Below the pieces are notes generated by a model. The model made no database searches. It was given only the letters and a program-made list of their open reading frames with translations, and was not told the origin of the DNA. The position numbers and the translations under genes are program-made. This document shows, piece by piece, positions 31,971 through 47,458 of a DNA stretch of 64,000 nt. Origin of the DNA: Gammaproteobacteria bacterium (lineage in GTDB: Bacteria; Pseudomonadota; Gammaproteobacteria; Steroidobacterales; Rariloculaceae); NCBI GenBank assembly GCA_036381515.1, contig DASVCR010000074.1, forward strand, positions 6,629 through 70,628, written 5' to 3'. Each line of letters opens with the position of its first letter. The first letter of the stretch is position 1.

Positions 31971-34900
31971 ATGGAAGGGCGGCACACGCGCCGTCTCGTG
32001 CGGTACTGGGTGTTCCTGTCGATCGCGTACCTGCTGGGCATCGTGTCTTACTTCTATTACGGCACGCTGCACGCGCTCTTCTCGTCGATGTCGGCGACCG
32101 TCGGCTTGATCGGTCCCCGCTATCTGATAGGGGCGATCGCGGTCTATTACATCACCGGCTTCGTGCTCGGCATCGTTTTTCTCGGCTTCGACGTACGGGC
32201 ACGCGACGTCCGAGAAGGAATCGTCGAGGTGCTCGATTCCCGGCCGCTGACGAATCTCGAGCTCGTCGCCGGCCGGTTCCTCGCGCTCTTCCTCGCCGGG
32301 TGGGTGCCGATCGTGATCCTCGCGGTCCTGATCCAGGCGCTCGGATGGCTGTTGCCGCTCCTCGGCTCGCCGGTCGGACGCACGGTGGAGCCGCTGTCGC
32401 TCGTCACACTCGCCGTGCTGATGGCCGTGCCCGCGATCGCGTTCGCGATCGCGCTCGTCTTCGTCATCACGCTGCTCGTGCGGCATCGGCTTCTCGCGGC
32501 GCTGATCTCGATCGCCGCGATCGTCGGCGTGTACTGGGCGCTGTTCACGATCCCGGTGATCTACGCGCCGTTCGTCGATTTCCTCGGCATGACGTCGGCG
32601 GGCACGCCGTCGGACATCGTTCCGGTCCTCGCGATGCCGGACGCCGGTGCGCAACGTCTCGGCATCCTCCTGGTCGCGCTCGGGCTCGTCGGCATCGCGG
32701 CCGTGATCCATCCGCGGCTCGACGGGGGCCGCCGCGGGCGGCCCGCGGCAGCGTCGCTCGCGCTCGTGCTCGTGGGCTTCGCGCTGATCGCGATGACGGC
32801 GCAGATGCGCATCGGTCAGGCCGCGCAGATGGAGGCGTGGCGCACCGCTCACGAGGCCCGGCGCGACGAGCCGATCGCCGACATCGTATCGATCGCAGGC
32901 ACGATCGACATCGAACCCGGCCGCGCCGTCCTCGCCGATCTCACCGTCGAGCTCGAGGCGCCGCCCGACCAGTCCTTGAGCCGAGTGCTGCTCACGCTGA
33001 ACCCCGGCCTCGTCGTCGACGACGTGCGCACGGCCGGCGGTGCGACGCTCGCATTCACGCAGCGCGACGGTCTGCTCGACATCGAGCTCGATCGTGCGCT
33101 CGCCGCAGGCGGACGGGCCGCGCTGACGCTCCGCTACGCCGGCAAGCCGGAAACCAGGTTCGCGTATCTCGACTCGGCGATCCGGCTCGAGCAGCTGAAC
33201 GCGAACCAGTCGCAGATCGGGCTTCTCGGCTACGAGCCCGCCGTCTTCGACCGGCGCTATGTCGCGTTGATGCCCGGGATTCACTGGCTGCCGGCTGCGG
33301 GGGTCGACGTCGGCCGCGACGATCCGCGGCACCGGCCGACGGACTATTTCGACGTCGCGCTCGACGTCACGTTGCCGCCGTCATGGCTCGCCGCGGGGCC
33401 CGGCAAGCGGCAGCCCGTGAGCTCGACGGACGACGCGGCCACGTTCCGGTTCGCGCCTGCCGTCAGCGTTCCGGAGGTCGCGCTGGTCGCCGGCGAGCTC
33501 GAGAGCTTCGCAACCGAAATCCGCGGGATCACGTTCGAGGCGCTCGTGCATCCGAGACACGCGGACAACTTCAAGGTGCTCGCCGGCGCTCGTGTGGAGA
33601 TCGAGCAGTGGATCGCGGACCGTCTCGATGCGAGCGCGGACGCCGGGCTCGACTACCCGTTCGATGCGTTTACGGTCGTCGAGGTCCCGAACAGGCTGAG
33701 GGGCTTCGCCGGCGGCTGGCGTCTCGATACGGCGCTCGCGCCGCCCGGCATGATGCTTCTGCGCGAGACGAGCTTCCCGACGGCGCGGTTCGACTTCGAC
33801 GTGCGCACGGTGTTCGGCAACCTCGACCCGGATGCGCAGGAAGGCGGCGCTGCTCGGGTCAACCGCGATCGCGTCGTGGCGTTCTTCAGCAACGACATCG
33901 CCGGCGGCAACGTGTTCACGGGCGCGGCCCGCTCGTTCTTCGCGCACCGCACGTCGGCGGCAGGGCCGGACGCGATCGCGCTCGACTTCGTGCTCGAGGA
34001 GCTCGCGACGCTGCTCGTGTCGGGGCAGCGCGGCTACTTCTCGGCGCATCTCTTCACGAACATCAACCAGGCGACGACCAGCGTCGTGAGCTCGATGCAA
34101 GGCGCGAGCAGCATCGCCGACGCGATGATCACGAGCCGGACCACGCAGCCGGACGTCTGGAACGTCGCGCTCGACGTGCCGCTGTCCGATATCGATCCGT
34201 GGAGCGATCCGCAGCGGACGATCGACCTGCTCGCGCTGAAGGGCGGGGAGATGGCGCAGGCGATTTACGACACGCTCGGCCCGCGCGCCGTCGGCGAGCT
34301 GCTCGCCGCGCTGCTCGAGCGCCGCGCGGGCCGGTCGTTCACGCTCGCCGATCTCGTCGCGGCCGGCGCCGACGTCGACGAGAGCCTCGGCCCGATGCTG
34401 ACCGAATGGGTCGGCGGCACGGGCCTTGCGGGCTTCGTCGCGCAGCGCGTCGAGCTCTATCGGCTGCCCGACGAAGGCAACGGCGACAGCCGCTATCAGC
34501 TCCTCGTGCGCATCGCGAACCCCGAGCCCGTCGTCGGATATGCGCGGGTCGCGTGGACGATGGAGCGCGGCGGGTCGCGCACGTTCGGCGACCCGATCCG
34601 GATCGCCGGCCGCTCGGCGATCGAGTACGGCGTCGTGCTGTCGCAGCCGCCGGCGGTCGTCTACGTGCATCCGTATCTGTCGCTGAACCGCGGCGACTTC
34701 CTCGCCGGGCTCACAGACACCGCGGAGGTCAGGAGCCGGAACGCCGAGCCGTTCAACGGCGTCCGCGACGTGCCGATCGACGAGCTCGCGGACGCGCGCA
34801 TCGTCGCGGACGATCTCGACGAAGGCTTCACGATCGTCGACGACGAGGCCGGCGCCGACATGCGCCTCGCCGGGCGAGGCGGGCCGACGGCCGGCCTCGA

Positions 34901-35405
34901 CAACGGTCTGCCGATCGCGGTGGGCGCGCTCCCGCCGGGCGCATGGAGCCGCAGGGCGAATGAGACGGCCTGGGGCCGGTACCGGCACACGTTCGCCTTC
35001 GTCGGCGCGGGCGAGGGCAAGCGCCGGGCGGTCATGCCGGCGTCGATCCCGACGGCCGGGCTCTGGGAGCTCGAGATTCACCTGCCGTTCGTGCAGATCC
35101 TGCCGGCGCCGAACCGCGGCACGTGGCAGCTCGAGATCGTGACGGCCGACGGGCGTGAGACGGTCAGCTACGATGCGACGGTCGCGAACGTCGGATGGAA
35201 CCTCGTCGGCCGGTTCCAACTCCCGGCCGGCGATGTGCGCGTCGAGATCAGCGACCGGACCGACGGCCGCATGGTGATCGCCGACGCGGTCGGCTGGTCG
35301 CCGGTGAGGGCCGATCGCCCGGCGGACGACACGGGCTCGAGCGAAGCGCTCTCCGACGACGCGCCGAGCGACGCCAACTCGAACGACACGGACTCGACCC
35401 TATGA
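31971..35405 (+). CDS. ABC-2-type permease fused to a very large extracytoplasmic domain
   Basis: 1144 aa. The N-terminal ~300 aa are multi-TM (ABC-2-like). The long soluble region has no HEXXH that I can find. The in-frame upstream peptide AIINVSHIRTVAR looks like the usual permease N-terminus. The true start may therefore be a non-canonical ATC near 31935, preceded by GGGGAGA. Confidence 0.8.
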   Translation: MEGRHTRRLVRYWVFLSIAYLLGIVSYFYYGTLHALFSSMSATVGLIGPRYLIGAIAVYYITGFVLGIVFLGFDVRARDVREGIVEVLDSRPLTNLELVAGRFLALFLAGWVPIVILAVLIQALGWLLPLLGSPVGRTVEPLSLVTLAVLMAVPAIAFAIALVFVITLLVRHRLLAALISIAAIVGVYWALFTIPVIYAPFVDFLGMTSAGTPSDIVPVLAMPDAGAQRLGILLVALGLVGIAAVIHPRLDGGRRGRPAAASLALVLVGFALIAMTAQMRIGQAAQMEAWRTAHEARRDEPIADIVSIAGTIDIEPGRAVLADLTVELEAPPDQSLSRVLLTLNPGLVVDDVRTAGGATLAFTQRDGLLDIELDRALAAGGRAALTLRYAGKPETRFAYLDSAIRLEQLNANQSQIGLLGYEPAVFDRRYVALMPGIHWLPAAGVDVGRDDPRHRPTDYFDVALDVTLPPSWLAAGPGKRQPVSSTDDAATFRFAPAVSVPEVALVAGELESFATEIRGITFEALVHPRHADNFKVLAGARVEIEQWIADRLDASADAGLDYPFDAFTVVEVPNRLRGFAGGWRLDTALAPPGMMLLRETSFPTARFDFDVRTVFGNLDPDAQEGGAARVNRDRVVAFFSNDIAGGNVFTGAARSFFAHRTSAAGPDAIALDFVLEELATLLVSGQRGYFSAHLFTNINQATTSVVSSMQGASSIADAMITSRTTQPDVWNVALDVPLSDIDPWSDPQRTIDLLALKGGEMAQAIYDTLGPRAVGELLAALLERRAGRSFTLADLVAAGADVDESLGPMLTEWVGGTGLAGFVAQRVELYRLPDEGNGDSRYQLLVRIANPEPVVGYARVAWTMERGGSRTFGDPIRIAGRSAIEYGVVLSQPPAVVYVHPYLSLNRGDFLAGLTDTAEVRSRNAEPFNGVRDVPIDELADARIVADDLDEGFTIVDDEAGADMRLAGRGGPTAGLDNGLPIAVGALPPGAWSRRANETAWGRYRHTFAFVGAGEGKRRAVMPASIPTAGLWELEIHLPFVQILPAPNRGTWQLEIVTADGRETVSYDATVANVGWNLVGRFQLPAGDVRVEISDRTDGRMVIADAVGWSPVRADRPADDTGSSEALSDDAPSDANSNDTDSTL

Positions 35406-36490
35406 GCAAGCTCCGCCGGACCCGAAGCAGGATCGCCCCCATCGCCGTCGCGAGCGTGCTCGTCGCCGCTTGCGCGCCGCAGGGCGGCGAGCAAACCGTC
35501 GAGTTCCGCGTGCCGGTCACGGTCGAGGAAGTCGGCGTCGCGACGCTCGAGGACCGCATCGTCACGACCGGCACGCTGCGCACGCCGGAGCTCGTCACGC
35601 TGAGCGCGCTCGACACGGGCGTGCTCGAGATCAATCGCGCGCCGTCCGGGCGCCGCTACGCCGAGGGCGACTTCGTCGCGGCCGGCGAAGAGATCGCGCG
35701 GATCGTCGGCGAGGACGTGCGGATCGCCGCGCGCATGGCGGCCGCGCAGCGCAGCTTCGAGGCCGCGCGCGCCGAGCTCGAGGCGAATCGGGATCTGTTC
35801 CAGCGCGGGCTGATCAACCAGACGGCGCTGAACAGCGTCGCGAGCGCGTTCGAGGACGCGAAGCTCGAGCTCGAGCGCGCGCGCCGCACCGAGGAGCGCA
35901 ACATCCTGATCACGCCGATCGACGGGGTCATCCTGAAGCTCGCGCGCAACGAGGACGGCCAGCTCCTCGCGAACGGCCAGCTCGTGAATCCGAATCAGAT
36001 GATCGCGCAGATCGCGCCGCTCGATCCGCTGATCGCCGACGTCGATCTCGTCGGCCGCGACATCGCCGTGGTGCGCGTCGGGCTCGAGGCGCGCGTCCGC
36101 TATCACGCGTGGCCGCACGAGGAGTTCACGGGCAAGGTGTTGCGGCTCGCGCCGACCGTCGACCCGCGCACGCGAGCGCTGCGCGCCGAGGTCGAGGTCG
36201 GCAACGCCGAGCGCGTGCTGCGCCCCGGGATGTTCGTCGAGGTCGTGCTGATCGGCGAGCGCCGCGAGAACGTGCCCGTCGTGCCCAGGCGCGCACTGAC
36301 CGATCGCGGCGGAAGGCGCGTCGTCTTCGTGCTGCGCGGGCAGCGCGTCGAGCAGCGCGCCGTCGAGATCGGGCTCGGCGACGACGAGTACGTCGAGATC
36401 CGGCAGGGCGTCGAGCCCGGCGACCGCGTCGTCGTCCGCGGCCTCGAGACGCTGACCGACCAGATGCTGGTGCGCGTCACCGGGCCGTGA
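35402..36490 (+). CDS. Efflux RND periplasmic adaptor (membrane fusion protein), lipoprotein
   Basis: The ATG overlaps the upstream stop (ATGA). Lipobox ASVLVAAC. It has HlyD/MFP-type coiled-coil and beta-barrel motifs (ITPIDGVILKL..., RPGMFVEVVL). Confidence 0.9.
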   Translation: MSKLRRTRSRIAPIAVASVLVAACAPQGGEQTVEFRVPVTVEEVGVATLEDRIVTTGTLRTPELVTLSALDTGVLEINRAPSGRRYAEGDFVAAGEEIARIVGEDVRIAARMAAAQRSFEAARAELEANRDLFQRGLINQTALNSVASAFEDAKLELERARRTEERNILITPIDGVILKLARNEDGQLLANGQLVNPNQMIAQIAPLDPLIADVDLVGRDIAVVRVGLEARVRYHAWPHEEFTGKVLRLAPTVDPRTRALRAEVEVGNAERVLRPGMFVEVVLIGERRENVPVVPRRALTDRGGRRVVFVLRGQRVEQRAVEIGLGDDEYVEIRQGVEPGDRVVVRGLETLTDQMLVRVTGP

Positions 36491-36494: not shown

Positions 36495-36578
36495 AAAAAT
36501 CGTGTCAGACACATTTTCGCACCGGAAATTGTGTCAGACACCTTTTTCCGGCGGAAAAAGGCGTCTGACACGACTTCC
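36495..36578. repeat. REP-like cluster (three copies, two forming a hairpin) inside the operon between the MFP and RND genes
   Basis: aaaaatcgtgtcagacacatttt; gaaattgtgtcagacaccttttt-ccggcgg-aaaaaggcgtctgacacgacttcc. Confidence 0.85.
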
Positions 36579-36587: not shown

Positions 36588-39500
36588 ATGTCCGAAGCGC
36601 TAGCCCGCATCGCCGTCCGCCGCCCCGTCGCCGTCACCGTGCTCGCCGCCGCGATCGTCGTGCTCGGCTGGGTCTCGTGGCGCGGGCTGCCGCTCGATCT
36701 CCTGCCGGACATCGAGAGCCCGACCGTGCTCGTGTCGGTCACCGCCGGCGAGCGTCCCGCGATCGAGATGGAGCGGCTCTACGGTGAGCGCATCGAGCAG
36801 CTGCTCTTCACGGTGCGCGGCTTGCGAGGCATCGACCAGATCGCACGCACGGGCGAGCTGATCACGCGCGTGACGTTCGACTGGGACGCCGACATCGATC
36901 TCGCGCTCGTCGACGTCAACAAGGCCGTCGCGCCGATCGCCGCGGATACCGACGTCGACGAGGTCCGCGTGCGGCGCTTCGATCCGCGGCAGCTGCCGGT
37001 GCTCGTGCTCGGGCTCGTGCCGGCCGACGGGCGGCAGATGGACCTCGCGGAGCTGCGCCGCATCGCCGAGCGCCGGATCGCGCCGGGCCTCGAGCAGCTG
37101 CGCGGCGTCGCGGAGGTCCGGGTCACCGGCGGACGCGAGAAGCAGGTCGAGGTGCGCCTCGACCGCACGCGCCTCGACGCGTACGGCCTCACGATCGACG
37201 AGGTCCGGAGCCGCATCAGCGCGACGAACGCCGACGTGAACGCGGGCACGCTCGTGCAGGGCGATCGCGTGTACCTCGTGCGCGGCCTGTCGCGCTTCAC
37301 CGGCCCCGACGACGTCGCGAGGACGGTCGTGCGCTACGAGGAAACGGCCTCGCAGGGCACCGTGCCGATTCACGTCGCCGATCTCGGCGAGGTCGTGCTC
37401 GCCGACGCCGAGATCACGCACGTCGTGCGCGTCGACGGCGTCGAAGGCGTCGGGCTCTCGATATACAAGGAGGCCGGCGCGAACACCGTCGAGATCTCGC
37501 GGCTCGTGCGCGATGCGCTCGAGCGTCTTGCCACGGACCTGCCCGGGATCGACGTCAGGACGGTCGCGGACGAGGCCGCGCTGATCGAGGACGCGATCGC
37601 CGACGTCGAAAGCGCCGCGCTCCTCGGCATCGCGCTCGCGGTCGCGGTGCTCTTCGTGTTCCTGCGCAGCCCCGGGCCGATCCTCGTCGTCGCCACCGCG
37701 ATCCCGGTCTCGCTGCTCGCGACCGTGTTCGCGATGGGCCTCGCGGGCCACAGCCTGAACCTGATGACGCTCGGCGGCCTCGCGCTCGGCGCCGGCATGC
37801 TCGTCGACAACGCCATCGTGGTGATGGAGAGCATCTTCAGGCGGCGCGCGCAAGGCGACGCGCCGGCCGACGCGGCCGCGAAGGGAACGGGCCTCGTCGG
37901 CGGCGCGATCGTCGCGAGCACGCTGACGACGTGCGTCGTGTTTCTGCCCGTCGTGCTGATCGAGGGGATGGCCGCACGGCTCGTCGGCGGCATCGCGTTC
38001 ACGGTCGTGATGTCGCTCCTCGTGTCGCTCGCCGTCGCGGTCGCGCTGATCCCGGCGCTCGCGGCGTGGCTCCTGCCCCGCGAGCGCACGCGCGACGTCG
38101 ATCCGGGCAACTCGCGCGTCGAGGCGGTCGTCTATGCGCTGCTCGGCCGGCCGTGGACGGTCGTCGGATGCGCGGCCGTGCTCTCCGCCGTCGCGGCCGC
38201 ATCGCTGTGGCGGCTCGGGACGGAGCTCTTGCCGCCGGCCGATCCGCGGCAGTTCAGCGTGCGCATCGTCGGGCCGCCCGGACAGCGGGTTGAGTCTACG
38301 GTCGAGACAGTCTCCGTCGTCGAAGCCGTGCTCGCGGAGGCCGCCGGGGAGGATCTCCGCGCGATGCTGTCCGAGGTCGGCCGGCTGCCGAACGACGACC
38401 GTCTGATTCGCGAGCAGCAGACCGAGGAGAACACGGCGGAGATCAGGCTCCTGCTCGCGGCCGGCGGGCAGGGCGGCAGCACGGTCGTGCAGAAGGCCGT
38501 GCCGGTCGTCGCCGGGCTCAATGGCGTCGAGGCATCGTGGGAGGTCGGAAGCTCCGCGCTGTCGCGCGCGCTCGGCACGGCCGGGCCGCCGATCGTCGTC
38601 GAGATCGCCGGCGACTCGATCGAGGACCTCCGCAGCGCCGCGGAGCACGTGCGCGAGCGGCTCGCGGCGGTGCCCGAGCTCTGGAACGTGCAGACGTCGT
38701 TCGAAGGCGCGCCGCCCGAGATGCGCATCACGCTGAAGCGGGCGCTCGCGGACGGCCTCGGCGTCGACCTCGACGCGGTCGGCGCCGTGCTCGAGGCGTC
38801 GCTCGACGGGCTCGACGCGACGACGCTGACGATCGGCGACGAGGAATACGACGTCGTGCTGCGACTGCCCGTCGCCGATCCTGACACGTTGCTCGCGCTG
38901 CCGCTCAGCACGCGCGACGGTCATCGCGTCACGGTCGGCGACGTGGCCCGGCTCGACCAGGTCGAGGGCGCGCGCGAGATCGTAAGGCGCGATCAACGGC
39001 GCATCGCGCGCGTCACGGCGCGGATCGCACCCGGCGTGACGGCGCCCGAAGCGCGTGCCGCGGCGCTCGCCGCCGTCGCGGCGGCGGATCTGCCGCCGGG
39101 CCTCTCGGCCGAGCTCGCCGGCGAGGAGCGCGAGCGCGCGCGCACGACCGAGGAGCTCGGCTTTGCGGCGGCGCTCGCGTTGCTGCTCGTGTTCATGGTC
39201 CTCGCCGGCACGTTCGAGTCGCTGCTCCATCCGGTCACCGTCCTTGCGGCGATTCCGCTGTCGTTGATCGGCGTCGCGCTCGTGCTCGTGCCGGCCGGCG
39301 CGCCGATCGGCGTCATGGCGATGCTCGGCCTGATCGTGCTCGCGGGCATTGCCGTCAACGATGCGATCCTGCTCGCCGATGCGGCGAAGCGGCAGATCGA
39401 CGATGGCGTCGAGCGTCGGCGCGCGCTCGCTCGCGCGGCGTCGATACGCCTGCGGCCGATCATTATGACGACGGCGACGACGGTGCTTGCGCTCGTGCCG

Positions 39501-39659
39501 CTCGCGCTCGGGACCGGCGAGGCGGCGCAGCTGCGCGCGCCGCTCGCGCTGACGGTCATCGGCGGGCTCACGGCGTCGACGCTCGGCTCGCTGTTCGTGA
39601 TCCCGTGCGTCTATCTCGTGCTCGACCGGATCGGCTTCCGATCCCGCCGGGCGACGTAG
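36588..39659 (+). CDS. RND efflux transporter permease (AcrB/HAE-type)
   Basis: ORF 36531..39659. ATG 36588 gives MSEALARIAVRRPVAVTVLAAAIVVLGWVSWRGLPLDLLPDIESPTVLVSV, a canonical RND N-terminus. It is about 1020 aa with 12-TM architecture. Confidence 0.92.
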   Translation: MSEALARIAVRRPVAVTVLAAAIVVLGWVSWRGLPLDLLPDIESPTVLVSVTAGERPAIEMERLYGERIEQLLFTVRGLRGIDQIARTGELITRVTFDWDADIDLALVDVNKAVAPIAADTDVDEVRVRRFDPRQLPVLVLGLVPADGRQMDLAELRRIAERRIAPGLEQLRGVAEVRVTGGREKQVEVRLDRTRLDAYGLTIDEVRSRISATNADVNAGTLVQGDRVYLVRGLSRFTGPDDVARTVVRYEETASQGTVPIHVADLGEVVLADAEITHVVRVDGVEGVGLSIYKEAGANTVEISRLVRDALERLATDLPGIDVRTVADEAALIEDAIADVESAALLGIALAVAVLFVFLRSPGPILVVATAIPVSLLATVFAMGLAGHSLNLMTLGGLALGAGMLVDNAIVVMESIFRRRAQGDAPADAAAKGTGLVGGAIVASTLTTCVVFLPVVLIEGMAARLVGGIAFTVVMSLLVSLAVAVALIPALAAWLLPRERTRDVDPGNSRVEAVVYALLGRPWTVVGCAAVLSAVAAASLWRLGTELLPPADPRQFSVRIVGPPGQRVESTVETVSVVEAVLAEAAGEDLRAMLSEVGRLPNDDRLIREQQTEENTAEIRLLLAAGGQGGSTVVQKAVPVVAGLNGVEASWEVGSSALSRALGTAGPPIVVEIAGDSIEDLRSAAEHVRERLAAVPELWNVQTSFEGAPPEMRITLKRALADGLGVDLDAVGAVLEASLDGLDATTLTIGDEEYDVVLRLPVADPDTLLALPLSTRDGHRVTVGDVARLDQVEGAREIVRRDQRRIARVTARIAPGVTAPEARAAALAAVAAADLPPGLSAELAGEERERARTTEELGFAAALALLLVFMVLAGTFESLLHPVTVLAAIPLSLIGVALVLVPAGAPIGVMAMLGLIVLAGIAVNDAILLADAAKRQIDDGVERRRALARAASIRLRPIIMTTATTVLALVPLALGTGEAAQLRAPLALTVIGGLTASTLGSLFVIPCVYLVLDRIGFRSRRAT

Positions 39660-39667
39660 GTCCGACC

Positions 39668-42600
39668 GTGGTGCTCGACCTCGTCGCGCTGCCCGTTCGC
39701 CGGCCTACCGCGACGGCGATGTTCTTCCTCGCGCTCGTGATGCTCGGGCTCTTCGCGTGGTACCGGATACCGATCGAGCTGATGCCGGCGCTCCGCGGCG
39801 AGCAGCTCGTCGTGTCGTTCGTGCGTCCGGGGTCCGAGCCCGAGGTCGTCGAGCGCGAGATCCTGCTGCCGCTCGAGGCGCGCGTCGGCGAGCTGCCGGG
39901 GCTCACCGAGACGTGGGGCGAGGTGAACGGCGCGAGCGGCCGTCTGCAGCTCCAGTTCGAGCGCGGCACGAACATCCGCGTGCGCGAGCTCGAGCTCAAC
40001 AGCATCGCGGCGGAGCTCGCGCGCACGCAGCCGGAAGGCACGTTCATCAACGTCTCGTCGCAGGACCTGACGGCGTTCAGCCGCTTCGCGATGATCATCC
40101 ACGTGACCGGGGGCGCCGATCCGAACGCGTTGCGCGATCTCGTCGAGCAGCGGATCGAGCCGCGGGTCGCCGCGGTCCCCGGCGTGAGTCAGGTGCTTGC
40201 GACGGGCGGCGCGCCGCGCGAGGTCACCGTGTGGATCGACCCGGAGCGCTGCGCGGCGCTCGGCATCCGTCCCGAGACGGTCACGGCGCTGCTCGGCCGG
40301 TCCGTGCAGCGGCTGCGCTTTCTCGGCGGCACCGAGCGCGACGGCCGCCGCTGGCAGGTCACGCTCGACGGGCGCCCCGGCGGCGTCGCATCGCTCGGCG
40401 AGCTCAGGATCGATCCCGCGCGGCCGGTGCTCTTGCGCCACGTCGCCGACATCGAGATGACGACCGCGCGCGCCGACAGCGCGTTCCGGATCAACGGCGC
40501 CGACGCGACGGGGCTCATCGTCTTTCAGGAGGAGGGCGAGAACCTCGTGCGGCTCGGCCGCGCGCTGCGCGAGCGGGTCGAGGAGCTCCGCGCGGAGTGG
40601 GCGCCGTACGGCGTCGATTTCCGGATCGGCTTCGACGCGGCCGAGACCGTCGAGGAGCAGCTCGATCGGCTGAAGCAGCTCGCGCTGTCGGGCTTCGTGA
40701 TCGCGCTCGCCGTGCTCTACCTGTTCCTGCGCGAGCTGCGCGCGGTCGCGGTCGTCGCCGTCGCCGTGCCGATGAGCCTGCTCATCGCGGGCGCGATGCT
40801 CTATCTCGGCGGCTACACGCTGAATCTCGTCACGCTGCTTGGTCTCGCCGTCGGCATCGGCATGCTCGTCGACAACAGCATCGTCGTCTTCGAGGCCGTG
40901 CAGCGGTTCCTCGAGCGCGGGCTCTCGGCGGAGTCCGCTGCAATCGCGGGCATCAGGCGCACCGTCCGCGCGATCGTCGCGGCGAGCGCGACGAACGCCG
41001 TCGTGTTCCTGCCGGCCGTGTTCCTCGTCGACGACAGCTTCATCCGCGGCGCGCTCGAGCTCGTCGCGATCGCGATCCTGCTGCCGCTCTTCGCGTCGCT
41101 CGTCGTCGCGGTCGGCTTCGTGCCGCTCCTGGCCGAGAAGTTCGCGGCGCCTGCTGCGGCCGCGCGCCTCGCGCGGCGGGCCGATTGGCGGCGGGAGCAC
41201 GGCGGCAAGCCGCCGCCGCAACGTGCCCGGGCGCTCCTGTCCGCGATCCTGAAATCCGCGTTGCGGCGGCCCGCGCCTTGGCTCGTCGCCGTCACGGTGT
41301 CGATCGTGCTGACGATCGTGATCGCGTTGCCGTGGGTGCTCGTCGGCAGCCTCGCGCAGCAGGCCGAGCAGGCCGACCAGGTCAGCCTCGAGATCGAGCT
41401 CGCCGGGAGCCGATCGCTCGACGCGGCGACCTCCGTCTTCGCGCGGATCGAGCAGGCGGTGCTCGGCCTCGACGGGATCGAGCTCGTCGAGAGCTCGTTC
41501 CAGGAGGTCGGCGGCACGCTGACCGTGCACCTCGATCCCGCCGCACGCGACGCGGGCGGCGCAACGGCCGGGCGCGTCCGCGAAGAGGTGCGCAAGGCCG
41601 TCGAAGGCCTCGACGGCGTCGAGCTCCGGACGATGACTCTCGACGGCACCGGCGGGGGATCGGGCGACGAACGCAACGGCGGCGGGGGCGGCGCGCTCGG
41701 CGGGTCCGCGTCCGAGGTGCGCGTGTCCGGACCGGACATGGTGCAGATCAACCTGATCGCGCGCGAGATCCAGTCGCGGCTCGAGTCGATCCCCGACGTC
41801 GAGGAGGCGTGGATCTCGGGCGGCACGGGCCAGGACGAGCTGCGCGTCGAGCCGCTGGCCGCCGCGCTCGCCGCATATCGGCTCAATCCGGAGGACGTGC
41901 TGAACGCGCTGAACGTGTTCCGGCGCGAGGGCGTACAGCTCCAGGTCGGGTTCACGCTCGCCGACGGGCGCGAGCTGCCGCTGACCGTGCGTCGGCCCGA
42001 CGTCGTCGCGTACGACGCGCTCGCGTCGATCGACGCGCTCCGGCTCGCGACGGACGAAGGCGTCGTGCCGTTCGGCGTCGTGACGACGGGCAGCCGCGTG
42101 CCGGCGCCGCCCGCGATCGCGCATCACAATGGCCGGCGCGAGCTTTCGGTGAGCTACAGCCTCGGCAGCTCGGCGCCGGAGCAGGGGCCCGAGCGCCTGC
42201 GGCTCGAGTCGGCAATCGAAGAGGCGGTGCGCACCGTTTACCGGCCCTCGGGGTACACGGTCGAGTCGGTCGTCGACGAGGGCACGGATTGGTTCAGGCT
42301 CGTCTTCGTGCCGGTGCTCCTGCTGCTCTACGCCGTGCTCGCGATCACGTTCGAGTCGTTCACGCTGCCGATCCTCGTGCTCGTCGCCGTGCCGCTGACC
42401 GTGCTCGGCGCGACGTGGTCGCTCGTGCTCGCCGGCGTAGGCGCCGGCATCTACGCGCTCGTCGGCGTGATCGCGCTGCTCGGGCTCACGGTGAATCCCG
42501 CAATCCTGCTCGTCGACCGCATGCAGCAGCGCGTGCTCGGGAGCGGCTCGAGCGGCGGCGCGGCCGCGATCGCCGCGGTGCGCGAGCGCACGCGGCCCGT

Positions 42601-44431
42601 GCTGATGACGAGCGCGACGACGATCGCGGGCTTGTGGCCGCTCGCGCTGTCGACCGGCCAGGAGCTCGAGATCTGGCCGCCGTTCGCGACCGTCGTGATG
42701 GGCGGCCTCGCGACGTCGACCGTGCTGACGCTCGTCGTCATTCCGGTCGGCTTCGTGCTGCTGACGCGCATCGACCGGATCTTCGGCAAGCTCGGTCCGT
42801 GGATCGTGCTCGGCTGGATCGCGGCGACGGCGGCGGTCGTCGCGCCGCTGATCGTCACGGATCGCTTGAACGCGCTCGGCTGGCAGATCACGACGACCGT
42901 GCTCGTCGCCGCAGCGCTCCTGTGGCTCGCGCTCGCGATCTTCCACCGGGCGCCGAAGCTCGCGTTCGATCCCGCCGCGACGGCGATCGAGGCCCGCTAC
43001 CTCGCGAAGGTGTACGGCAGGCCAGGATCGGTCAAGCGCGCGTGGCGGCTCGGCCGCGACGGCGGCCGCGACGGCGGTGCGTCCGCCGCGCGCACGCGGC
43101 GCGACGCGGGCGAGCGCGCGCTGACGTTCACCATGCTCTTCGCGGGCGCGCTCTATCTCGCGACGCACCTGGGCTCGATGCCGTGGCGGCTCGTCTTCGC
43201 GTACATCGCGGCGGCGTTCGCGGCGCGTGCGGTGATCGAGCTCCGCCTCGCGGTGCTGCCGCCGCGCGAGGAGGCGCGCGACGCACGGATCGCCCGCGGC
43301 CTCACGTTCGATGCGATCGTTCCGACGCTCGCGCCGTGGATCATGCTCGCGGCGCTCGCGGTCGCGTACATGGTGCTGCCGGCCATCGACGGCACGCGCC
43401 AGGCGCTGCCGCCGGTCGCCGTCGTCGTGCTCGCCGGGCTCACGCTGATCGTGCAGCTCGGCCGCCGGACCGCGCGCCGCGCCGCGGGTGCGGCCGCGGC
43501 GGGCGCGCCGGCGGACGTCGGCCGCGTGCGCGCCGCGTGGCGGCAGGCGTGTCTCGCGGTATTCGGTCTCGACCTCCCGCGCGCCGAGATCGAGGCGCTC
43601 GCGACGACGAGCTTCGCGGCGAAGCAAGGCATGATCGGCATCCTCGGTCCGAACGGCGCCGGCAAGACGACGCTGCTCCGGATGCTTGCGGGCGTGCTCG
43701 ATCCGACCGCGGGCGCGATCCACTACAGCGGTCTGCCGAAGCGCCGCGTCGGCGGCTACGTGAGCCGCTGGGTCGGCTATCTGCCGCAGGAGTTCGGTCT
43801 GCCGAATCACCTGACCGCGCGCGAGTATCTCGACTACTTCGCGCTGCTCTACGAGGTCGGGGACCGGCAGGAGCGGCGCGAGCGCGTCGACGCGCTGCTC
43901 GCCGAGGTCGGTCTCGACGAACGCAAGGACGAGAAGATCGGCGCGTACTCGGGCGGCATGCGGCAGCGCGTCGCCGTCGCGCGCACGTTGCTCCGTCATC
44001 CGCCGATCATCATCGTCGACGAGCCGACGGTCGGGCTCGATCCGCGCGAGCGGATCCGTTTCCGGAACCTGCTCTCGCGGCTCGCCGAAGGGCGCGTCGT
44101 GCTGTTCTCGACGCACGTCGTCGAGGACGTCGCCGTGTCGTGCCGGCGGGTCATCGTGATGAGCCGCGGCCGGATCGTCTACGACGGCGCGCCTGCGGAC
44201 CTCGCGGGGCTCGCGGCGGGGAAGACGTGGGAGATCCGCCTGGCGGCCGGCGAGCACGTCGAGCTCCCGCGATCGTGCAAGGTCGTCGATCAGGTGCCCG
44301 ACGCGGGCGGCGGCGTGCGCATGCGCGTGCTGTCCGCGACGCAGCCGCATCCGGCGGCGAAGGCGATCGAGCCCGTGATCGAGGACGGCTATCTCGAGCT
44401 CGTGACGCGAGGAGGCGAGCGCGATGCGTGA
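39668..44431 (+). CDS. RND efflux permease fused in frame to extra TM helices and a C-terminal ABC ATPase domain
   Basis: ORF 39605..44431. GTG 39668 follows the upstream stop at 39659. The RND N-terminus is LPVRRPTATAMFFLALVMLGLFAWYRIPIELMP, and the RND body runs to about 42790. Hydrophobic segments follow. The NBD has GPNGAGKTT (about 43646-43672), YSGGMRQR (about 43949) and IIIVDEPTVGLD (about 44005-44030). No stop or frame change interrupts the ORF. Confidence 0.85.
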   Translation: MVLDLVALPVRRPTATAMFFLALVMLGLFAWYRIPIELMPALRGEQLVVSFVRPGSEPEVVEREILLPLEARVGELPGLTETWGEVNGASGRLQLQFERGTNIRVRELELNSIAAELARTQPEGTFINVSSQDLTAFSRFAMIIHVTGGADPNALRDLVEQRIEPRVAAVPGVSQVLATGGAPREVTVWIDPERCAALGIRPETVTALLGRSVQRLRFLGGTERDGRRWQVTLDGRPGGVASLGELRIDPARPVLLRHVADIEMTTARADSAFRINGADATGLIVFQEEGENLVRLGRALRERVEELRAEWAPYGVDFRIGFDAAETVEEQLDRLKQLALSGFVIALAVLYLFLRELRAVAVVAVAVPMSLLIAGAMLYLGGYTLNLVTLLGLAVGIGMLVDNSIVVFEAVQRFLERGLSAESAAIAGIRRTVRAIVAASATNAVVFLPAVFLVDDSFIRGALELVAIAILLPLFASLVVAVGFVPLLAEKFAAPAAAARLARRADWRREHGGKPPPQRARALLSAILKSALRRPAPWLVAVTVSIVLTIVIALPWVLVGSLAQQAEQADQVSLEIELAGSRSLDAATSVFARIEQAVLGLDGIELVESSFQEVGGTLTVHLDPAARDAGGATAGRVREEVRKAVEGLDGVELRTMTLDGTGGGSGDERNGGGGGALGGSASEVRVSGPDMVQINLIAREIQSRLESIPDVEEAWISGGTGQDELRVEPLAAALAAYRLNPEDVLNALNVFRREGVQLQVGFTLADGRELPLTVRRPDVVAYDALASIDALRLATDEGVVPFGVVTTGSRVPAPPAIAHHNGRRELSVSYSLGSSAPEQGPERLRLESAIEEAVRTVYRPSGYTVESVVDEGTDWFRLVFVPVLLLLYAVLAITFESFTLPILVLVAVPLTVLGATWSLVLAGVGAGIYALVGVIALLGLTVNPAILLVDRMQQRVLGSGSSGGAAAIAAVRERTRPVLMTSATTIAGLWPLALSTGQELEIWPPFATVVMGGLATSTVLTLVVIPVGFVLLTRIDRIFGKLGPWIVLGWIAATAAVVAPLIVTDRLNALGWQITTTVLVAAALLWLALAIFHRAPKLAFDPAATAIEARYLAKVYGRPGSVKRAWRLGRDGGRDGGASAARTRRDAGERALTFTMLFAGALYLATHLGSMPWRLVFAYIAAAFAARAVIELRLAVLPPREEARDARIARGLTFDAIVPTLAPWIMLAALAVAYMVLPAIDGTRQALPPVAVVVLAGLTLIVQLGRRTARRAAGAAAAGAPADVGRVRAAWRQACLAVFGLDLPRAEIEALATTSFAAKQGMIGILGPNGAGKTTLLRMLAGVLDPTAGAIHYSGLPKRRVGGYVSRWVGYLPQEFGLPNHLTAREYLDYFALLYEVGDRQERRERVDALLAEVGLDERKDEKIGAYSGGMRQRVAVARTLLRHPPIIIVDEPTVGLDPRERIRFRNLLSRLAEGRVVLFSTHVVEDVAVSCRRVIVMSRGRIVYDGAPADLAGLAAGKTWEIRLAAGEHVELPRSCKVVDQVPDAGGGVRMRVLSATQPHPAAKAIEPVIEDGYLELVTRGGERDA

Positions 44432-45206
44432 GCATGCGACGAAGGCGGGCGCGTCCGTGCGCGCGAGCGGGCTCCGCGCCGCGGCGGCGAGGGCCGCGGC
44501 CGCTGCGGTCGATGCGGCGCTGCTGCTCCGGCTGTCGCTGCGGCTCCAGCTCGGCAAGCGCTTCCTCGCCGTGCCGCTGCTCGCGCTCCTGTGGCCCGCG
44601 TACCAGGCGTTGACGCTCGTCGTCGGGTGGCGCGCCGAGAGCTTCGATGCGAGCGACGCGCAGAACGCGCTGATCGGCTTTCCGCTCGCCGTGCTTGGCA
44701 TCGGGCTCGGCGTGCGCATCATCGCGGGCGAGATCGAGCAGCGGACGCTCGAGGTTACGTACACGGTCCCGGGCGGCGCGGCGCGGGTCTGGATCTCGAA
44801 GCTCGCGGCCGCGGCGGCGGCGCTGCTTGCCGCGGAGGCGCTCCTCGGGATCGTGACGGCGTTGTTCTTCACGCCCTATCCGCCGAGCGCGCTCTACGGC
44901 GCGTTCCAAAGTGCGGTGTTCTATCTCGCCGCCGCAGCGGGGCTCGGCGCGCTCCTGCGGAGCGAGATCACGGCCGCGCTCGTCGCGGGCGTGCTGCTCA
45001 CCGCGAACGGTTTCCTGACCGGGTTCGGCGGCGCACCGAGCCGCTGGTCGCCGTTCTTCAATCCGCTCGCGGTCGACGAAGCGAGCGCTGCCGACGTGCT
45101 GGCGTGGACGGTGCAGAACCGCATCGGCGTCGCGCTCGCGACCGCGGCGCTCGTCGCGCTGTCGTGTGCTCGGGCGGAACGGCGGGAGAAGCTGCTCAGG
45201 GTGTGA
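44424..45206 (+). CDS. ABC-2-type transporter permease
   Basis: The ATG overlaps the upstream stop (8-nt overlap). 260 aa, multi-TM, with GEIEQRTLEV as the typical ABC-2 motif. Confidence 0.8.
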   Translation: MREHATKAGASVRASGLRAAAARAAAAAVDAALLLRLSLRLQLGKRFLAVPLLALLWPAYQALTLVVGWRAESFDASDAQNALIGFPLAVLGIGLGVRIIAGEIEQRTLEVTYTVPGGAARVWISKLAAAAAALLAAEALLGIVTALFFTPYPPSALYGAFQSAVFYLAAAAGLGALLRSEITAALVAGVLLTANGFLTGFGGAPSRWSPFFNPLAVDEASAADVLAWTVQNRIGVALATAALVALSCARAERREKLLRV

Positions 45207-45220: not shown

Positions 45221-45366
45221 CAAAAATCGTCGGCACGAAAATCGTGTCCACAAAAATCGTGTCAGACACCTTTTTCGGCGAGGTCCGTTCGATATCCCGA
45301 CCCCTTCGGCCGAAAAAGGTGTCTGACACGATTTTTCCGAGAAAAAGGGTGTCTGACACGATTTTT
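45221..45366. repeat. REP-like cluster: degenerate direct partial copies, then a long nested hairpin and a further inverted copy
   Basis: caaaaatcgtcggcac, gaaaatcgtgtccac and aaaaatcgtgtcagacaccttttt (45252-45275). Then aaaaaggtgtctgacacgattttt (45313-45336) and aaaaagggtgtctgacacgattttt (45342-45366). Confidence 0.85.
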
Positions 45367-46957: not shown

Positions 46958-47458
46958 TCAGCCCCCGAGGTAGTCGCGCTTGCCGATCTGTACGCCGTTG
47001 TGGCGGAGGATCAGGTAAGCCGTCGTATAGTGGAAATAGAAGTTCGGCACGACGTGCGTCAGCAGGTAGTCCTTGCCTTTGAAGGTCAGCGTCCCGTTCG
47101 GATACTTGAGCTCGATGTCGCGCGTCTCCCAGCCGTCGAAGTCCTCCCGTCGGAACGACTGCAGGTGATCGCGCGTCCGCGCGATGCGTCGGTGCAGGTC
47201 CGCGGAGGTCTGCTCGTCGTCGGCCCACTTCGGCGGCTCCTGTCCCGCAAGCCGGCTCGCGCAGCCCTTCGCCTGATCGGACATGATCTGGATCTGCTTC
47301 ACGAACGGCAGCATGTCGGGCGCGAGGCGCCCGTGCAGGAACACCTGCAGGTCGATCTTCCTCGCCTCCGCGTCCGCCTCCGCCTTCGTGAGGATCTTGT
47401 CGAGACTCCCGAGCATCGCGGAGAACGTGATGAATTGATCGTAGACGTCGATGGTCAT
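46958..47458 (-). CDS. DUF1993 domain-containing protein
   Basis: 166 aa. MTIDVYDQFITFSAMLGSLDKILTKAEADAEARKID...LAPDMLPFVKQIQI is typical of DUF1993. Confidence 0.85.
   Translation of the reverse strand: MTIDVYDQFITFSAMLGSLDKILTKAEADAEARKIDLQVFLHGRLAPDMLPFVKQIQIMSDQAKGCASRLAGQEPPKWADDEQTSADLHRRIARTRDHLQSFRREDFDGWETRDIELKYPNGTLTFKGKDYLLTHVVPNFYFHYTTAYLILRHNGVQIGKRDYLGG

What the first reader, a model, noticed from the sequence alone, without database searches (positions are those of the whole stretch)
39668..44431. In-frame fusion of a complete RND (AcrB-like) permease to an ABC ATPase domain
Seen: a single uninterrupted frame of about 1590 codons. A canonical 12-TM RND body runs to about nt 42790. 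About six further hydrophobic segments follow, then a complete nucleotide-binding domain (GPNGAGKTT, YSGGMRQR, IIIVDEPTVGLD). A typical NBD first strand (AIEARYLAKVYG, about 42986-43018) appears roughly 200 residues before the Walker A. The intervening region looks like TM helices inserted into the NBD N-terminus; this is tentative.

Established: RND pumps are proton-motive-force driven and ABC transporters are ATP driven. They are normally separate polypeptides. A covalent fusion suggests a hybrid-energised or ATP-gated exporter that I have not seen described.
Basis: partly seen in the sequence, partly recalled or inferred. Interest (0 to 1): 0.78.

Follow-up and report, generated by a model that had tools for sequence, protein, structure and literature searches.

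The report
RND pump fused to ABC ATPase
One real, widely conserved bacterial gene joins a complete proton-driven RND efflux pump to an ATP-burning ABC motor domain, inside an operon that also encodes the motor's own membrane partners, and this pairing of two transporter classes appears in none of the papers I could search.

Summary
Window 39668-44431 (+) is one 1,587-codon gene. It encodes a full-length RND permease, two extra TM helices, an NBD first strand with its A-loop Tyr, four more TM helices, and then a catalytically complete ABC-2-type NBD.

It is not an artefact. More than 120 protein clusters and about 60 species-representative genomes carry it as a single ORF, at 44-76% G+C. They include Gammaproteobacteria, Acidobacteriota, Desulfobacterota, KSB1 and Latescibacterota. 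A second clade (named sources: Omnitrophota, Hinthialibacter, BRC1) has a short linker without TM helices.

The next gene is an ABC-2 permease (SMALL) that usually overlaps the fusion's stop codon. Most loci also encode a second ABC-2 ATPase, an ABC-2 permease fused to a catalytically dead M1-aminopeptidase-like periplasmic domain, a membrane-fusion lipoprotein and a second RND. Some add an outer-membrane factor.

My best reading is that an ATP-driven ABC-2 module is tethered to an ion-driven RND pump and the two share one envelope-spanning conduit.

The lack of AcrB's D408 and K940 is not evidence for ATP drive, because 63 of 70 nearest unfused RNDs lack them too.

Eight full-text literature searches, six aimed at this or the partner architecture, found no description. 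Substrate, stoichiometry and energy coupling are unknown.

The parts
30971..31891 (+). ABC1: free-standing ABC-2-type ATPase (306 aa), first gene of the conserved operon
   Evidence: Pfam ABC_tran 3e-30. Best NCBIfam matches are DrrA and GldA, both below their curated cut-offs. The same gene occupies the same position in L001-L003. All catalytic motifs are canonical, and beta1 and beta2 are contiguous.
31971..35405 (+). BIG: ABC-2 (NosY-like) permease with 6 TM helices (aa ~10-296), fused to a ~850-aa periplasmic domain that has an M1-aminopeptidase-like fold without catalytic motifs, plus a Golvesin_C-like beta-sandwich
   Evidence: Hydropathy. Homologues are named NosY-type or ABC-2 permease by JGI, and several hit PF12679 or PF12698. 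AlphaFold2 pLDDT 88.5, pTM 0.84. Foldseek matches IRAP, ERAP1 and PepN at E about 1e-19 over ~630 columns. None of 64 members has HExxH or GAMEN. Golvesin_C 1.2e-9.
35402..36490 (+). MFP: periplasmic adaptor lipoprotein (362 aa); its ATG overlaps BIG's stop codon (ATGA)
   Evidence: NCBIfam RND_mfp 7e-53, above its cut-off. Start and lipobox ...LVAAC. Found upstream of the fusion in 39 genome loci.
36501..36572 (.). REP-like repeat and near-perfect ~20-bp-arm palindrome in the MFP-RND1 spacer
   Evidence: the motif GTGTCAGACA occurs 9 times in the window against 0.17 expected.
36588..39659 (+). RND1: second, unfused RND permease (1,023 aa from the ATG at 36588), 27% identical to the fused RND
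   Evidence: Pfam ACR_tran 1.8e-198, full length. Relay residues D-N / N-D / R-T. Start codon.
39668..42787 (+). RND2 body of the fusion (aa 1-1040): 12 TM helices and two periplasmic loops
   Evidence: Pfam ACR_tran 4e-144, profile positions 3-1020 of 1021. Best PDB sequence hit is MdtB. D402, N403, N943, P944, R974 and T981 are each present in at least 117 of 118 homologues.
42797..42943 (+). TM13-TM14 hairpin (aa 1044-1092), which returns the chain to the cytoplasm
   Evidence: Hydropathy. AlphaFold2 helices 45-64 and 71-93 at block-mean pLDDT 81-94. Loop charges follow the positive-inside rule.
42986..43027 (+). Displaced NBD beta1 strand with A-loop (aa 1107-1120; K1114, Y1116 and G1120 invariant)
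   Evidence: Predicted as a strand (model residues 108-117; block-mean pLDDT about 91). Invariant in 73 sequences. Y1116 aligns with the A-loop Tyr of ABC1. Calling it the A-loop rests on general knowledge of ABC NBDs.
43097..43498 (+). TM15-TM18: four-helix membrane insert between beta1/A-loop and beta2 of the NBD (aa 1144-1277)
   Evidence: AlphaFold2 helices 145-168, 172-197, 205-242 and 250-278, with block-mean pLDDT mostly above 85 (one block, residues 201-210, at 66); the tether before them is disordered (pLDDT ~51). An exhaustive search finds the linker only in this family: 34 hits among 1.84 billion representatives.
43523..44227 (+). Remainder of NBD2 (aa 1286-1520): beta2, Walker A (K1333), Q1374, signature S1428, Walker B D1451/E1452, H1483
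   Evidence: Pfam and NCBIfam. PDB sequence hits are ABCA4, ABCA7, ABCA1, TM_1403 and NosF. Foldseek gives 4yer and NosF. Motifs are invariant or nearly so.
44228..44431 (+). C-terminal domain of NBD2 (aa 1521-1587) and stop codon
   Evidence: The Foldseek alignments to TM_1403 (4yer) and NosF span nearly the whole length of those targets, i.e. longer than an NBD core. Mean column identity 0.59.
44424..45206 (+). SMALL: divergent 6-TM ABC-2 permease (260 aa), overlapping the fusion's stop by 8 nt; presumed membrane partner of NBD2
   Evidence: Pfam ABC2_membrane_2 and _3 at E 1.7e-3 and 3.3e-3 here. Six of 9 diverse orthologues hit PF12679 over the same profile region, one at the gathering score. 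It is adjacent in essentially all loci with enough downstream DNA, with a 4-nt overlap in 33.

Best explanation
This is a composite envelope exporter in which an ATP-driven ABC-2 (type V-like) transporter module is covalently tethered to an ion-driven RND pump.

Shown:
- RND2 and NBD2 are one polypeptide.
- NBD2 keeps every catalytic motif.
- The next, translationally coupled gene is an ABC-2 permease (SMALL).
- The usual operon adds a paralogous ATPase (ABC1), a second ABC-2 permease carrying a large dead-M1-like periplasmic domain (BIG), a membrane-fusion lipoprotein, a second RND and, in some lineages, an outer-membrane factor.
- The RND keeps the conserved Asp, Arg and Thr (AcrB D407, R971, T978) of its subfamily.

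Inferred:
- NBD2 dimerises with ABC1, or with a second NBD2 where ABC1 is not encoded nearby, and powers SMALL and BIG.
- The ABC-2 module flips, extracts or presents a still unknown amphipathic or envelope substrate at the outer face of the inner membrane, with BIG's periplasmic domain acting as a binding scaffold.
- The RND1/RND2 assembly, driven by the ion gradient, takes the substrate over and expels it through the adaptor and outer-membrane channel.
- The fusion, with the TM13-14 hairpin and the TM15-18 anchor inserted next to the A-loop, keeps the ATPase at the RND's membrane domain, fixes stoichiometry and could let the two cycles sense each other.
For: - Single ORF in 53 of 55 evaluable genome loci at 44-76% G+C.
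- More than 120 full-length clusters at 52-87% identity.
- Catalytic motifs and the beta1/A-loop are invariant or nearly so.
- Confident model of the TM12-to-NBD region: pLDDT 88.8, pTM 0.79.
- SMALL is adjacent and overlapping and is ABC-2-like.
- BIG is a NosY-type ABC-2 permease with an M1-like fold lacking HExxH and GAMEN.
- The operon order is conserved in distant lineages.
- The same parts recur, reshuffled, around the short-linker clade, with an OEP gene.
- D402, R974 and T981 are invariant in 118 of 118 homologues, and the same pattern occurs in 63 of 70 unfused relatives. This argues that the RND is still ion-coupled.
- The tether between beta1 and TM15 is predicted disordered (pLDDT ~51). 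That fits an anchor better than a rigid force-transmitting element.
- MFP-dependent ABC-2 exporters with two different permeases, such as E. coli YbhGFSR, are known; this comes from my own knowledge, and a paper on YbhFSR was listed.
Against: - No experiment, complex model or co-evolution analysis supports any of the proposed contacts.
- I had no model coordinates, so I could not see how TM13-18 pack.
- RND pumps are usually trimers and ABC NBDs dimers, so the stoichiometry is unresolved.
- In a Pseudomonadales subgroup only the fusion and SMALL are encoded locally. ABC1, BIG, MFP and RND1 are therefore not obligatory neighbours.
- The window's operon has no outer-membrane factor gene.
- SMALL's ABC-2 assignment rests on sub-threshold Pfam hits for most members.
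- The substrate is unknown.
Confidence: 0.55

Rival explanations
1. ATP-powered or ATP-gated RND. NBD2 closure on ATP binding is transmitted through beta1/TM14 and TM15-18 into the RND2 membrane domain. It replaces or gates the ion-driven conformational cycle, in the way MacB transmits force to its periplasmic domain.
For: The covalent link is universal. The four-helix insert sits immediately after the nucleotide-contacting A-loop Tyr, which is invariant. RND2's TM10 has N-P where RND1 has N-D, so RND2 has one fewer carboxylate than its partner. AcrB carrying D408N or K940A is inactive (PMC4359379).
Against: The D-N / N-x pattern is the norm in unfused relatives: 63 of 70 plus L087. It therefore says nothing about ATP. 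D402, R974 and T981 remain invariant. NBD2 has a dedicated ABC-2 permease gene next door. The beta1-to-TM15 tether is predicted disordered. The short-linker clade has no TM insert at all yet keeps the fusion. A lone NBD cannot hydrolyse ATP without a partner NBD.
Confidence: 0.17
2. The ABC-2 part is a mechanotransducer, not a transporter. As in NosDFY, LolCDE or FtsEX, cytoplasmic ATP hydrolysis drives movements of BIG's periplasmic M1-like clamp. The clamp captures a periplasmic or outer-leaflet molecule and loads it into the RND porter domain, and nothing crosses the inner membrane through the ABC module.
For: BIG's TM domain is annotated NosY-type. NBD2's fold matches include NosF. BIG carries a large, catalytically dead M1-like domain. 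From my own knowledge, that fold opens and closes in ERAP1. An M1-like protein also accompanies the short-linker clade.
Against: The Pseudomonadales subgroup has the fusion and SMALL without BIG nearby. There is no evidence of any BIG-RND contact. This reading overlaps heavily with the best explanation and differs only in where the substrate starts.
Confidence: 0.2
3. Artefact: a frameshift, a missed stop codon or a chimeric assembly joined two separate genes, or the long ORF is a chance product of the high G+C content.
For: The window is 72% G+C, and two other ORFs of more than 1,600 codons overlap the region.
Against: The same single ORF appears in independent assemblies from NCBI, JGI, ENA and Logan. 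It appears in 53 of 55 evaluable species-representative genomes down to 44% G+C. The junction and linker are conserved and fold confidently.
Confidence: 0.01

Closest known systems
MdtABC (E. coli): adaptor plus two RND paralogues that form a heterotrimer
   Same: An adaptor gene is followed by two tandem, divergent RND genes. MdtB is the best PDB sequence match of the fused RND. The interprotomer hairpin region is 6 residues shorter than AcrB's in MdtB, MdtC, RND1 and RND2.
   Different: MdtB and MdtC have no ATPase domain and carry the AcrB-type D407, D408, K940 relay. Here both RNDs have D-N / N-x, identity to MdtB and MdtC is only 21-24%, and the second RND carries six extra TM helices and an NBD.
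MFP-dependent ABC-2 exporters with two different permeases (E. coli YbhGFSR; YhiI-RbbA-YhhJ)
   Same: DrrA/GldA/RbbA-like ABC-2-type NBDs, two different ABC-2 permeases (BIG and SMALL) and a membrane-fusion protein in one operon.
   Different: Those systems contain no RND. Their two NBDs are fused to each other (YbhF) or to a permease (RbbA), never to an RND. This comparison rests on my own knowledge; only the NCBIfam RbbA hit was computed here.
MacAB-TolC: ATP-driven tripartite efflux pump
   Same: ATP hydrolysis, a membrane-fusion adaptor and an outer-membrane factor act in one envelope-spanning machine.
   Different: MacB is a type VII ABC protein with an FtsX-type TM domain and its own periplasmic domain. 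No FtsX or MacB_PCD domain occurs here, and the periplasmic porter here is an RND.
NosDFY and ABCA-type (type V) ABC systems
   Same: NBD2's best sequence and fold matches are ABCA4, ABCA7, ABCA1, TM_1403 and NosF. BIG resembles NosY or ABCA half-transporters in joining a 6-TM domain to a large extracytoplasmic domain.
   Different: None of these has TM helices inserted between beta1 and beta2 of the NBD, and none has an RND attached. BIG's extracytoplasmic domain is M1-peptidase-like, not NosD-like or ABCA-ECD-like.
CFTR NBD1 regulatory insertion
   Same: From my own knowledge, CFTR NBD1 carries an extra segment at the same structural site, between beta1 and beta2, and that segment modulates the domain.
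   Different: CFTR's insert is about 30 disordered soluble residues. Here it is about 190 residues containing four TM helices. The short-linker clade has about 50 soluble residues there. Not tested here.

Membership tests
RND permease superfamily (Pfam ACR_tran) | Full-length match to the 12-TM, two-periplasmic-loop architecture | tested here: met
   ACR_tran E 4e-144, profile positions 3-1020 of 1021, aa 7-1032.
RND permease superfamily (Pfam ACR_tran) | Conserved TM4 Asp and TM11 Arg/Thr (AcrB D407, R971, T978) | tested here: met
   D402, R974 and T981 are present in 118 of 118 homologues.
AcrB/MexB-type HAE-1 pumps | D407-D408-K940 proton-relay triad | tested here: not met
   D408 is replaced by N403 and K940 by N943 in at least 117 of 118 homologues. 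The same holds in RND1 and in 63 of 70 unfused relatives. These single changes inactivate AcrB (PMC4359379).
NCBIfam RND_permease_2 (NF033617) subfamily | Score at or above the curated cut-off of 1,250 bits | tested here: not met
   390.6 bits for the fusion and 560.1 bits for RND1. It is the best-matching model, but both scores are far below its cut-off.
ABC ATPase (Pfam ABC_tran), ABC-2/DrrA-GldA-NodI type | Walker A, Q-loop, LSGGQ-type signature, Walker B with catalytic Glu, D-loop and H-loop | tested here: met
   GPNGAGKTT, LPQE, YSGGMRQR, IIIVDEPTVGLD and FSTHVVED are present and nearly invariant. ABC_tran 6e-29 is above its cut-off.
ABC ATPase (Pfam ABC_tran), ABC-2/DrrA-GldA-NodI type | Contiguous N-terminal beta1/A-loop and beta2 preceding Walker A | tested here: not met
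   Beta1 and the A-loop (aa 1107-1120) are separated from beta2 by about 190 residues holding four TM helices. The Pfam and NCBIfam matches start only at profile positions 12-16.
GldA (TIGR03522) and DrrA (TIGR01188) equivalogs | Score at or above the curated cut-off (402.6 and 312.45 bits) | tested here: not met
   173.5 and 164.7 bits. The NBD is related to them but is a member of neither.
MdtABC-type heteromeric RND system | Adaptor gene followed by two paralogous RND genes | tested here: met
   MFP, RND1 and RND2 occur in this order in the window and in L001-L004.
MdtABC-type heteromeric RND system | The two RNDs form one heterotrimer | not testable with these tools
   No multimer prediction or experiment was available.
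ABC-2 (type V) exporter | 6-TM ABC-2 permease partner(s) encoded with the ATPase | tested here: inconclusive
   SMALL: the window copy scores E 1.7e-3, and 6 of 9 orthologues hit PF12679, one at the threshold. BIG: some homologues hit PF12679 or PF12698 and JGI names them NosY/ABC-2. The SMALL-BIG profile comparison is weak, E 0.024. No structure of SMALL was predicted.
Tripartite efflux system (pump + MFP + OMF) | Outer-membrane factor gene associated with the system | tested here: inconclusive
   No OEP gene was found among the ORFs scanned next to the operon in the window. An OEP gene lies directly downstream in L003, L004, L010-L013, L015-L017 and L071.
MacB-type (type VII) ABC efflux pump | FtsX-type TM domain and MacB periplasmic core domain | tested here: not met
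   No FtsX or MacB_PCD hit in any gene of the operon.
M1 zinc aminopeptidase (for BIG's periplasmic domain) | GAMEN and HExxH...E catalytic motifs | tested here: not met
   None of 64 family members has either motif, although the fold matches at E about 1e-19.

The most novel reading that the evidence does not exclude
ATP binding and hydrolysis by the fused NBD is mechanically coupled, through the TM13-18 helices packed against the RND membrane domain, to the RND's conformational cycle. This would make it the first RND transporter driven or obligatorily gated by ATP, and a single polypeptide that integrates ion-gradient and ATP energy for one transport step.
Probability: 0.15. Interest if true: 0.92.

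Novelty: new variant of a known kind. Interest (0 to 1): 0.72.

Why it matters
RND pumps (ion-gradient driven) and ABC transporters (ATP driven) are taught as separate energy classes that at most cooperate as independent proteins. Here evolution has welded them together and kept them so across several phyla, in at least two architectural versions. It has also embedded four membrane helices inside the ATPase fold, next to the nucleotide-contacting A-loop.

Even in the conservative reading, a tethered two-stage exporter, this is a natural and genetically fixed example of the proposed hand-off of substrate from an inner-membrane transporter to an RND pump, which has been hard to study with loose components.

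In the bolder reading it would be an ATP-gated RND.

The system offers defined targets for cryo-EM and mutagenesis. It shows that the beta1-beta2 site of an NBD can accept a membrane domain. It also points to an uncharacterised export pathway that is common in marine, sediment and sponge-associated uncultured bacteria.

Tried and rejected
1. Loss of the proton relay as evidence for ATP drive. D408N and K940N looked striking. Controls showed the same pattern in an unfused Clostridia RND and in 63 of 70 nearest unfused RNDs. I rejected it as fusion-specific evidence.

2. Split variants. L056, L058, L062 and L065 matched only the NBD in the genome scan. tblastn showed that L056 and L058 are fused in one frame with a diverged linker, and that L062 and L065 are cut at the contig end. 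The two short ORFs (L012, L046) contain runs of N.

3. The linker as a degenerate ABC-2 permease. Profile-profile comparison of the linker with SMALL and with BIG's TM domain gave only a 25-residue similarity at the beta1 motif (E 0.022) and nothing else. I rejected this because that segment is Arg/Lys-rich and so probably cytoplasmic, it directly follows the cytoplasmic end of TM12 in short-linker proteins, and it aligns with ABC1's beta1 and A-loop.

4. A free-standing TM-bearing NBD ancestor. The exhaustive linker search found only 34 hits. All are in fusion context or are short proteins that look like fragments.

5. A fold match for the extra TM helices. Foldseek hits were driven only by the NBD.

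6. Literature. Eight full-text searches were run. Six were aimed at this or the partner architecture, using fusion names, domain names and descriptive phrases, and found nothing relevant; one was rejected for syntax; one retrieved the AcrB relay papers.

7. Rfam and promoter/terminator scans gave nothing above background.

8. The look-up of the window's own protein in the contig index failed.

9. My first MFP query was one base out of frame, so the MFP rows are unreliable. This was corrected.

10. The plasmid search for background RNDs returned a single record at the threshold I used. It was superseded.
Full report
**Observation**

The region lies in DNA of about 72% G+C, and three ORFs of more than 1,600 codons overlap there. 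Only the frame 39605..44431 (+) reads as protein. The other + frame translates to Arg/Ala-rich nonsense. From the GTG at 39668 the product is 1,587 aa, identical to a protein held by NCBI from a Gammaproteobacteria MAG (P0001).

Pfam finds a full-length ACR_tran domain (aa 7-1032, profile positions 3-1020 of 1021, E 4e-144) and an ABC_tran domain (aa 1321-1454, E 6e-29). NCBIfam places the ATPase nearest GldA, DrrA and NodI, all below their cut-offs. Walker A, the Q-loop, the signature, Walker B with its catalytic Glu and the H-loop are all present.

**Is the fusion real?**

Yes.
- A search of 5.8 billion protein clusters returned more than 120 clusters of 1,555-1,607 aa with the same two Pfam domains, 52-87% identity and 99-100% coverage. 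They come from NCBI, JGI, ENA and Logan assemblies.
- A scan of one genome per GTDB species found relatives covering the whole linker and NBD in about 60 species. These include Pseudomonadales, Pseudohongiellaceae and OM182, several Acidobacteriota orders, Desulfatiglandales and Desulfobacterales, and more distantly KSB1 and Latescibacterota. Nearly all are MAGs.
- In 53 of 55 loci not cut by a contig end, RND, linker and NBD form one stop-free ORF of at least 1,571 codons, at 44-76% G+C. The two exceptions contain runs of ten Ns inside the RND body.
- Loci that seemed to match only the NBD are fused too, or are cut at the contig end.

**Anatomy of the junction**

Hydropathy and an AlphaFold2 model of aa 1000-1587 built on 73 sequences (pLDDT 88.8, pTM 0.79) agree on the following order.
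1. TM12.
2. A two-helix hairpin, TM13-14 (aa 1044-1092).
3. A beta-strand exactly at the displaced motif (aa 1107-1116).
4. A poorly ordered, Arg-rich tether.
5. Four long helices, TM15-18 (aa 1144-1277).
6. A helix, then beta2, Walker A and the rest of the NBD with a C-terminal domain.

Loop charges obey the positive-inside rule, and the even helix count leaves the NBD cytoplasmic. K1114, Y1116 and G1120 of the displaced strand are invariant. Y1116 aligns with the A-loop Tyr of the neighbouring ordinary ATPase ABC1. By general knowledge of ABC domains, this is the aromatic residue that stacks on adenine. The NBD is therefore split between its A-loop and beta2 by a membrane-embedded four-helix insert.

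The linker is family-specific. An exhaustive HMMER search of 1.84 billion representatives found 34 hits. All are at about position 1030-1300 of fusion-length proteins or in short proteins that look like fragments. Foldseek matched only the NBD and its C-terminal domain (TM_1403, NosF, ABCA7, ABCA4).

**A second architecture**

Proteins of about 1,416-1,469 aa carry the RND and the NBD with a linker of only about 100 residues. There are about 39-45 such clusters, and the few with source names are Omnitrophota, Hinthialibacter and BRC1. In these proteins beta1 (LIVEIDHLTRIYP) follows the cytoplasmic end of TM12, and about 50 non-hydrophobic residues separate it from beta2. The RND::NBD junction and the beta1/beta2 split are therefore old. 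The TM insert is an elaboration in the main family.

**Genomic context**

In the window the operon is:

| Gene | Coordinates | Product |
|---|---|---|
| ABC1 | 30971-31891 | ABC-2-type ATPase |
| BIG | 31971-35405 | ABC-2 permease with large periplasmic domain |
| MFP | 35402-36490 | adaptor lipoprotein; ATGA overlap with BIG |
| RND1 | 36588-39659 | unfused RND permease |
| fusion | 39668-44431 | RND2::NBD2 |
| SMALL | 44424-45206 | ABC-2 permease |

The same order occurs in unrelated assemblies, sometimes with an OEP gene after SMALL. MFP is detectable upstream in 39 genome loci (the MFP rows used an out-of-frame query and should be ignored).

SMALL is a divergent ABC-2 permease. The window copy has weak Pfam hits, 6 of 9 diverse orthologues hit PF12679 over the same region, and one reaches the gathering score. 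Its start overlaps the fusion's stop by 4 nt in 33 loci.

BIG has six TM helices of NosY/ABC-2 type. Its periplasmic domain is modelled with confidence (pLDDT 88.5, pTM 0.84) and has an M1-aminopeptidase fold (E about 1e-19 over ~630 columns). None of 64 family members has HExxH or GAMEN, so it is a dead-enzyme scaffold.

The short-linker clade is surrounded by the same kinds of parts in another order: ABC-2 permease, RND, M1-like protein, RND::NBD and OEP. A Pseudomonadales subgroup has only the fusion and SMALL locally. These two genes are the invariant core.

**Energy coupling of the RND**

I aligned the RNDs to E. coli AcrB, MdtB and MdtC. Both RNDs keep D407, R971 and T978 but have N at positions 408 and 940. 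In the fusion family these states are present in at least 117 of 118 sequences. In AcrB, D408N and K940A each abolish proton translocation and efflux (PMC4359379). It was tempting to read this as loss of proton drive.

The controls say otherwise. An unfused Clostridia RND and 63 of the 70 nearest unfused RNDs have the same D-N / N-N / R-T pattern. It is a trait of this little-studied RND subfamily. The invariant Asp, Arg and Thr argue that the fused RND is still ion-coupled.

One difference remains unexplained. RND1 has Asp at position 941 of TM10, whereas RND2 has Pro there.

**Mechanism**

I think the most likely reading (about 0.55) is a composite exporter. NBD2, with ABC1 or a second NBD2, powers the ABC-2 permeases SMALL and BIG. 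That module delivers or presents a substrate at the outer face of the inner membrane. The ion-driven RND1/RND2 assembly expels it through the adaptor and an outer-membrane factor. The fusion and its membrane anchor keep the two engines together in fixed stoichiometry.

A neat but untested corollary follows. A 2:1 RND1:RND2 heterotrimer would present exactly one NBD2 to pair with ABC1, and one SMALL to pair with BIG. From my own knowledge, this would be analogous to MdtB2C and to YbhFSR.

The rivals are:
- a NosDFY-like mechanotransducer variant, in which ATP moves BIG's periplasmic clamp (about 0.2);
- direct ATP drive or gating of the RND through TM13-18 (about 0.15-0.17);
- artefact (about 0.01).

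Four observations argue against direct drive: the dedicated permease gene, the disordered beta1-to-TM15 tether, the TM-less short-linker clade, and the retained relay residues. None of them is decisive, because I could not inspect helix packing or model the complex.

**Comparison with known systems and novelty**

The parts belong to known superfamilies. The protein fails several curated or defining tests of the specific families it resembles:
- the AcrB-type relay triad;
- the RND_permease_2, GldA and DrrA cut-offs;
- a contiguous NBD N-terminus;
- MacB's domains;
- M1 catalytic motifs, for BIG.

The closest analogues are MdtABC for the RND pair, YbhGFSR-type MFP-dependent ABC-2 exporters and NosDFY or ABCA systems for the ABC part, and MacAB-TolC as the known ATP-driven tripartite pump. 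None of them joins an RND to an NBD.

Automated annotation already labels these proteins with both names (JGI). Six full-text searches aimed at the fusion, or at BIG's permease-M1 architecture, found no description. The searchable library lacks many subscription papers, so this absence is not proof.

I class it as a new variant of known kinds. It is real, widespread and uncharacterised. Its covalent architecture would surprise efflux specialists, and it gives a tractable entry to the question of how inner-membrane transporters and RND pumps cooperate.

Noticed in passing
window 18026-18090, 36501-36572, 45258-45360: A REP-like intergenic repeat built on (C/T)GTGTCAGACA(C). It gives 9 matches against 0.17 expected, in three clusters of three copies. 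The cluster between MFP and RND1 forms a near-perfect palindrome with ~20-bp arms (GTGTCAGACACCTTTTTCCG / CGGAAAAAGGCGTCTGACAC), and another cluster lies just after SMALL. All are AT-rich islands in a 72% G+C sequence. It could be a REP or MITE element, an mRNA-stabilising hairpin or an intra-operon attenuator.
   Followed up: partly
window 31971-35405: BIG is an ABC-2 (NosY-like) permease fused to an M1-aminopeptidase-like periplasmic domain that lacks HExxH and GAMEN in all 64 homologues examined, followed by a Golvesin_C-like beta-sandwich and an acidic tail. It appears to be a dead-peptidase scaffold on an ABC permease, and the one search aimed at this architecture found no paper.
   Followed up: yes
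L070:1-4326 and L071:6944-11257; proteins P0275-P0315: A second clade of RND::NBD fusions (~1,416-1,469 aa; named sources are Omnitrophota, Hinthialibacter and BRC1) has a ~100-aa linker without TM helices. About 50 soluble residues separate beta1 from beta2. In L071 it sits in an operon with an ABC-2 permease, another RND, an M1-like protein and an OEP.
   Followed up: partly
window 42482-42511 (fusion TM10) versus RND1 TM10: TM10 reads V-N-P-A in the fused RND (in 117 of 118 homologues), V-N-D-A in the partner RND1, and V-N-N-A in most unfused relatives. The paralogue-specific Pro versus Asp difference is unexplained.
   Followed up: partly
window 39757-44613 (+) and 39611-44872 (-): Two further ORFs of 1,618 and 1,753 codons overlap the real gene. 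The + strand one translates to Arg/Ala-rich junk. They are shadow ORFs of high-G+C DNA and a reminder that ORF length alone means little here.
   Followed up: yes
window 41645-41707 (fusion aa 660-680): A Gly-rich, low-complexity loop (GTGGGSGDERNGGGGGALGGS) lies in the second periplasmic loop of the fused RND. The family consensus is also Gly-rich there.
   Followed up: no
L024, L025, L028-L030, L034-L036, L066: In several Acidobacteriota loci (mostly 'Ca. Multivorans') and one Gammaproteobacteria locus (L036), tblastn with SMALL gives two to four non-overlapping matches downstream of the fusion, which suggests tandem copies of the permease gene. Not verified at ORF level.
   Followed up: no
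L038-L043, L045, L047, L050, L055, L060: A Pseudomonadales subgroup (L040, L043 and L050 have 48-52% G+C) has only the fusion and SMALL together. In L043 the neighbours are unrelated (Na/sulfate symporter, acyltransferase, TonB receptor and others). In L042 a BIG homologue lies downstream instead of upstream.
   Followed up: partly
window 27465-29045 and 47654-49375: A winged-helix (Trans_reg_C) plus TPR protein lies upstream of the operon, and a PAS histidine kinase lies downstream. An SPFH/Band 7 gene (45946-46929) and a DUF1993 gene (46958-47458, minus strand) follow SMALL. I found no evidence that any of these belongs to the system.
   Followed up: no
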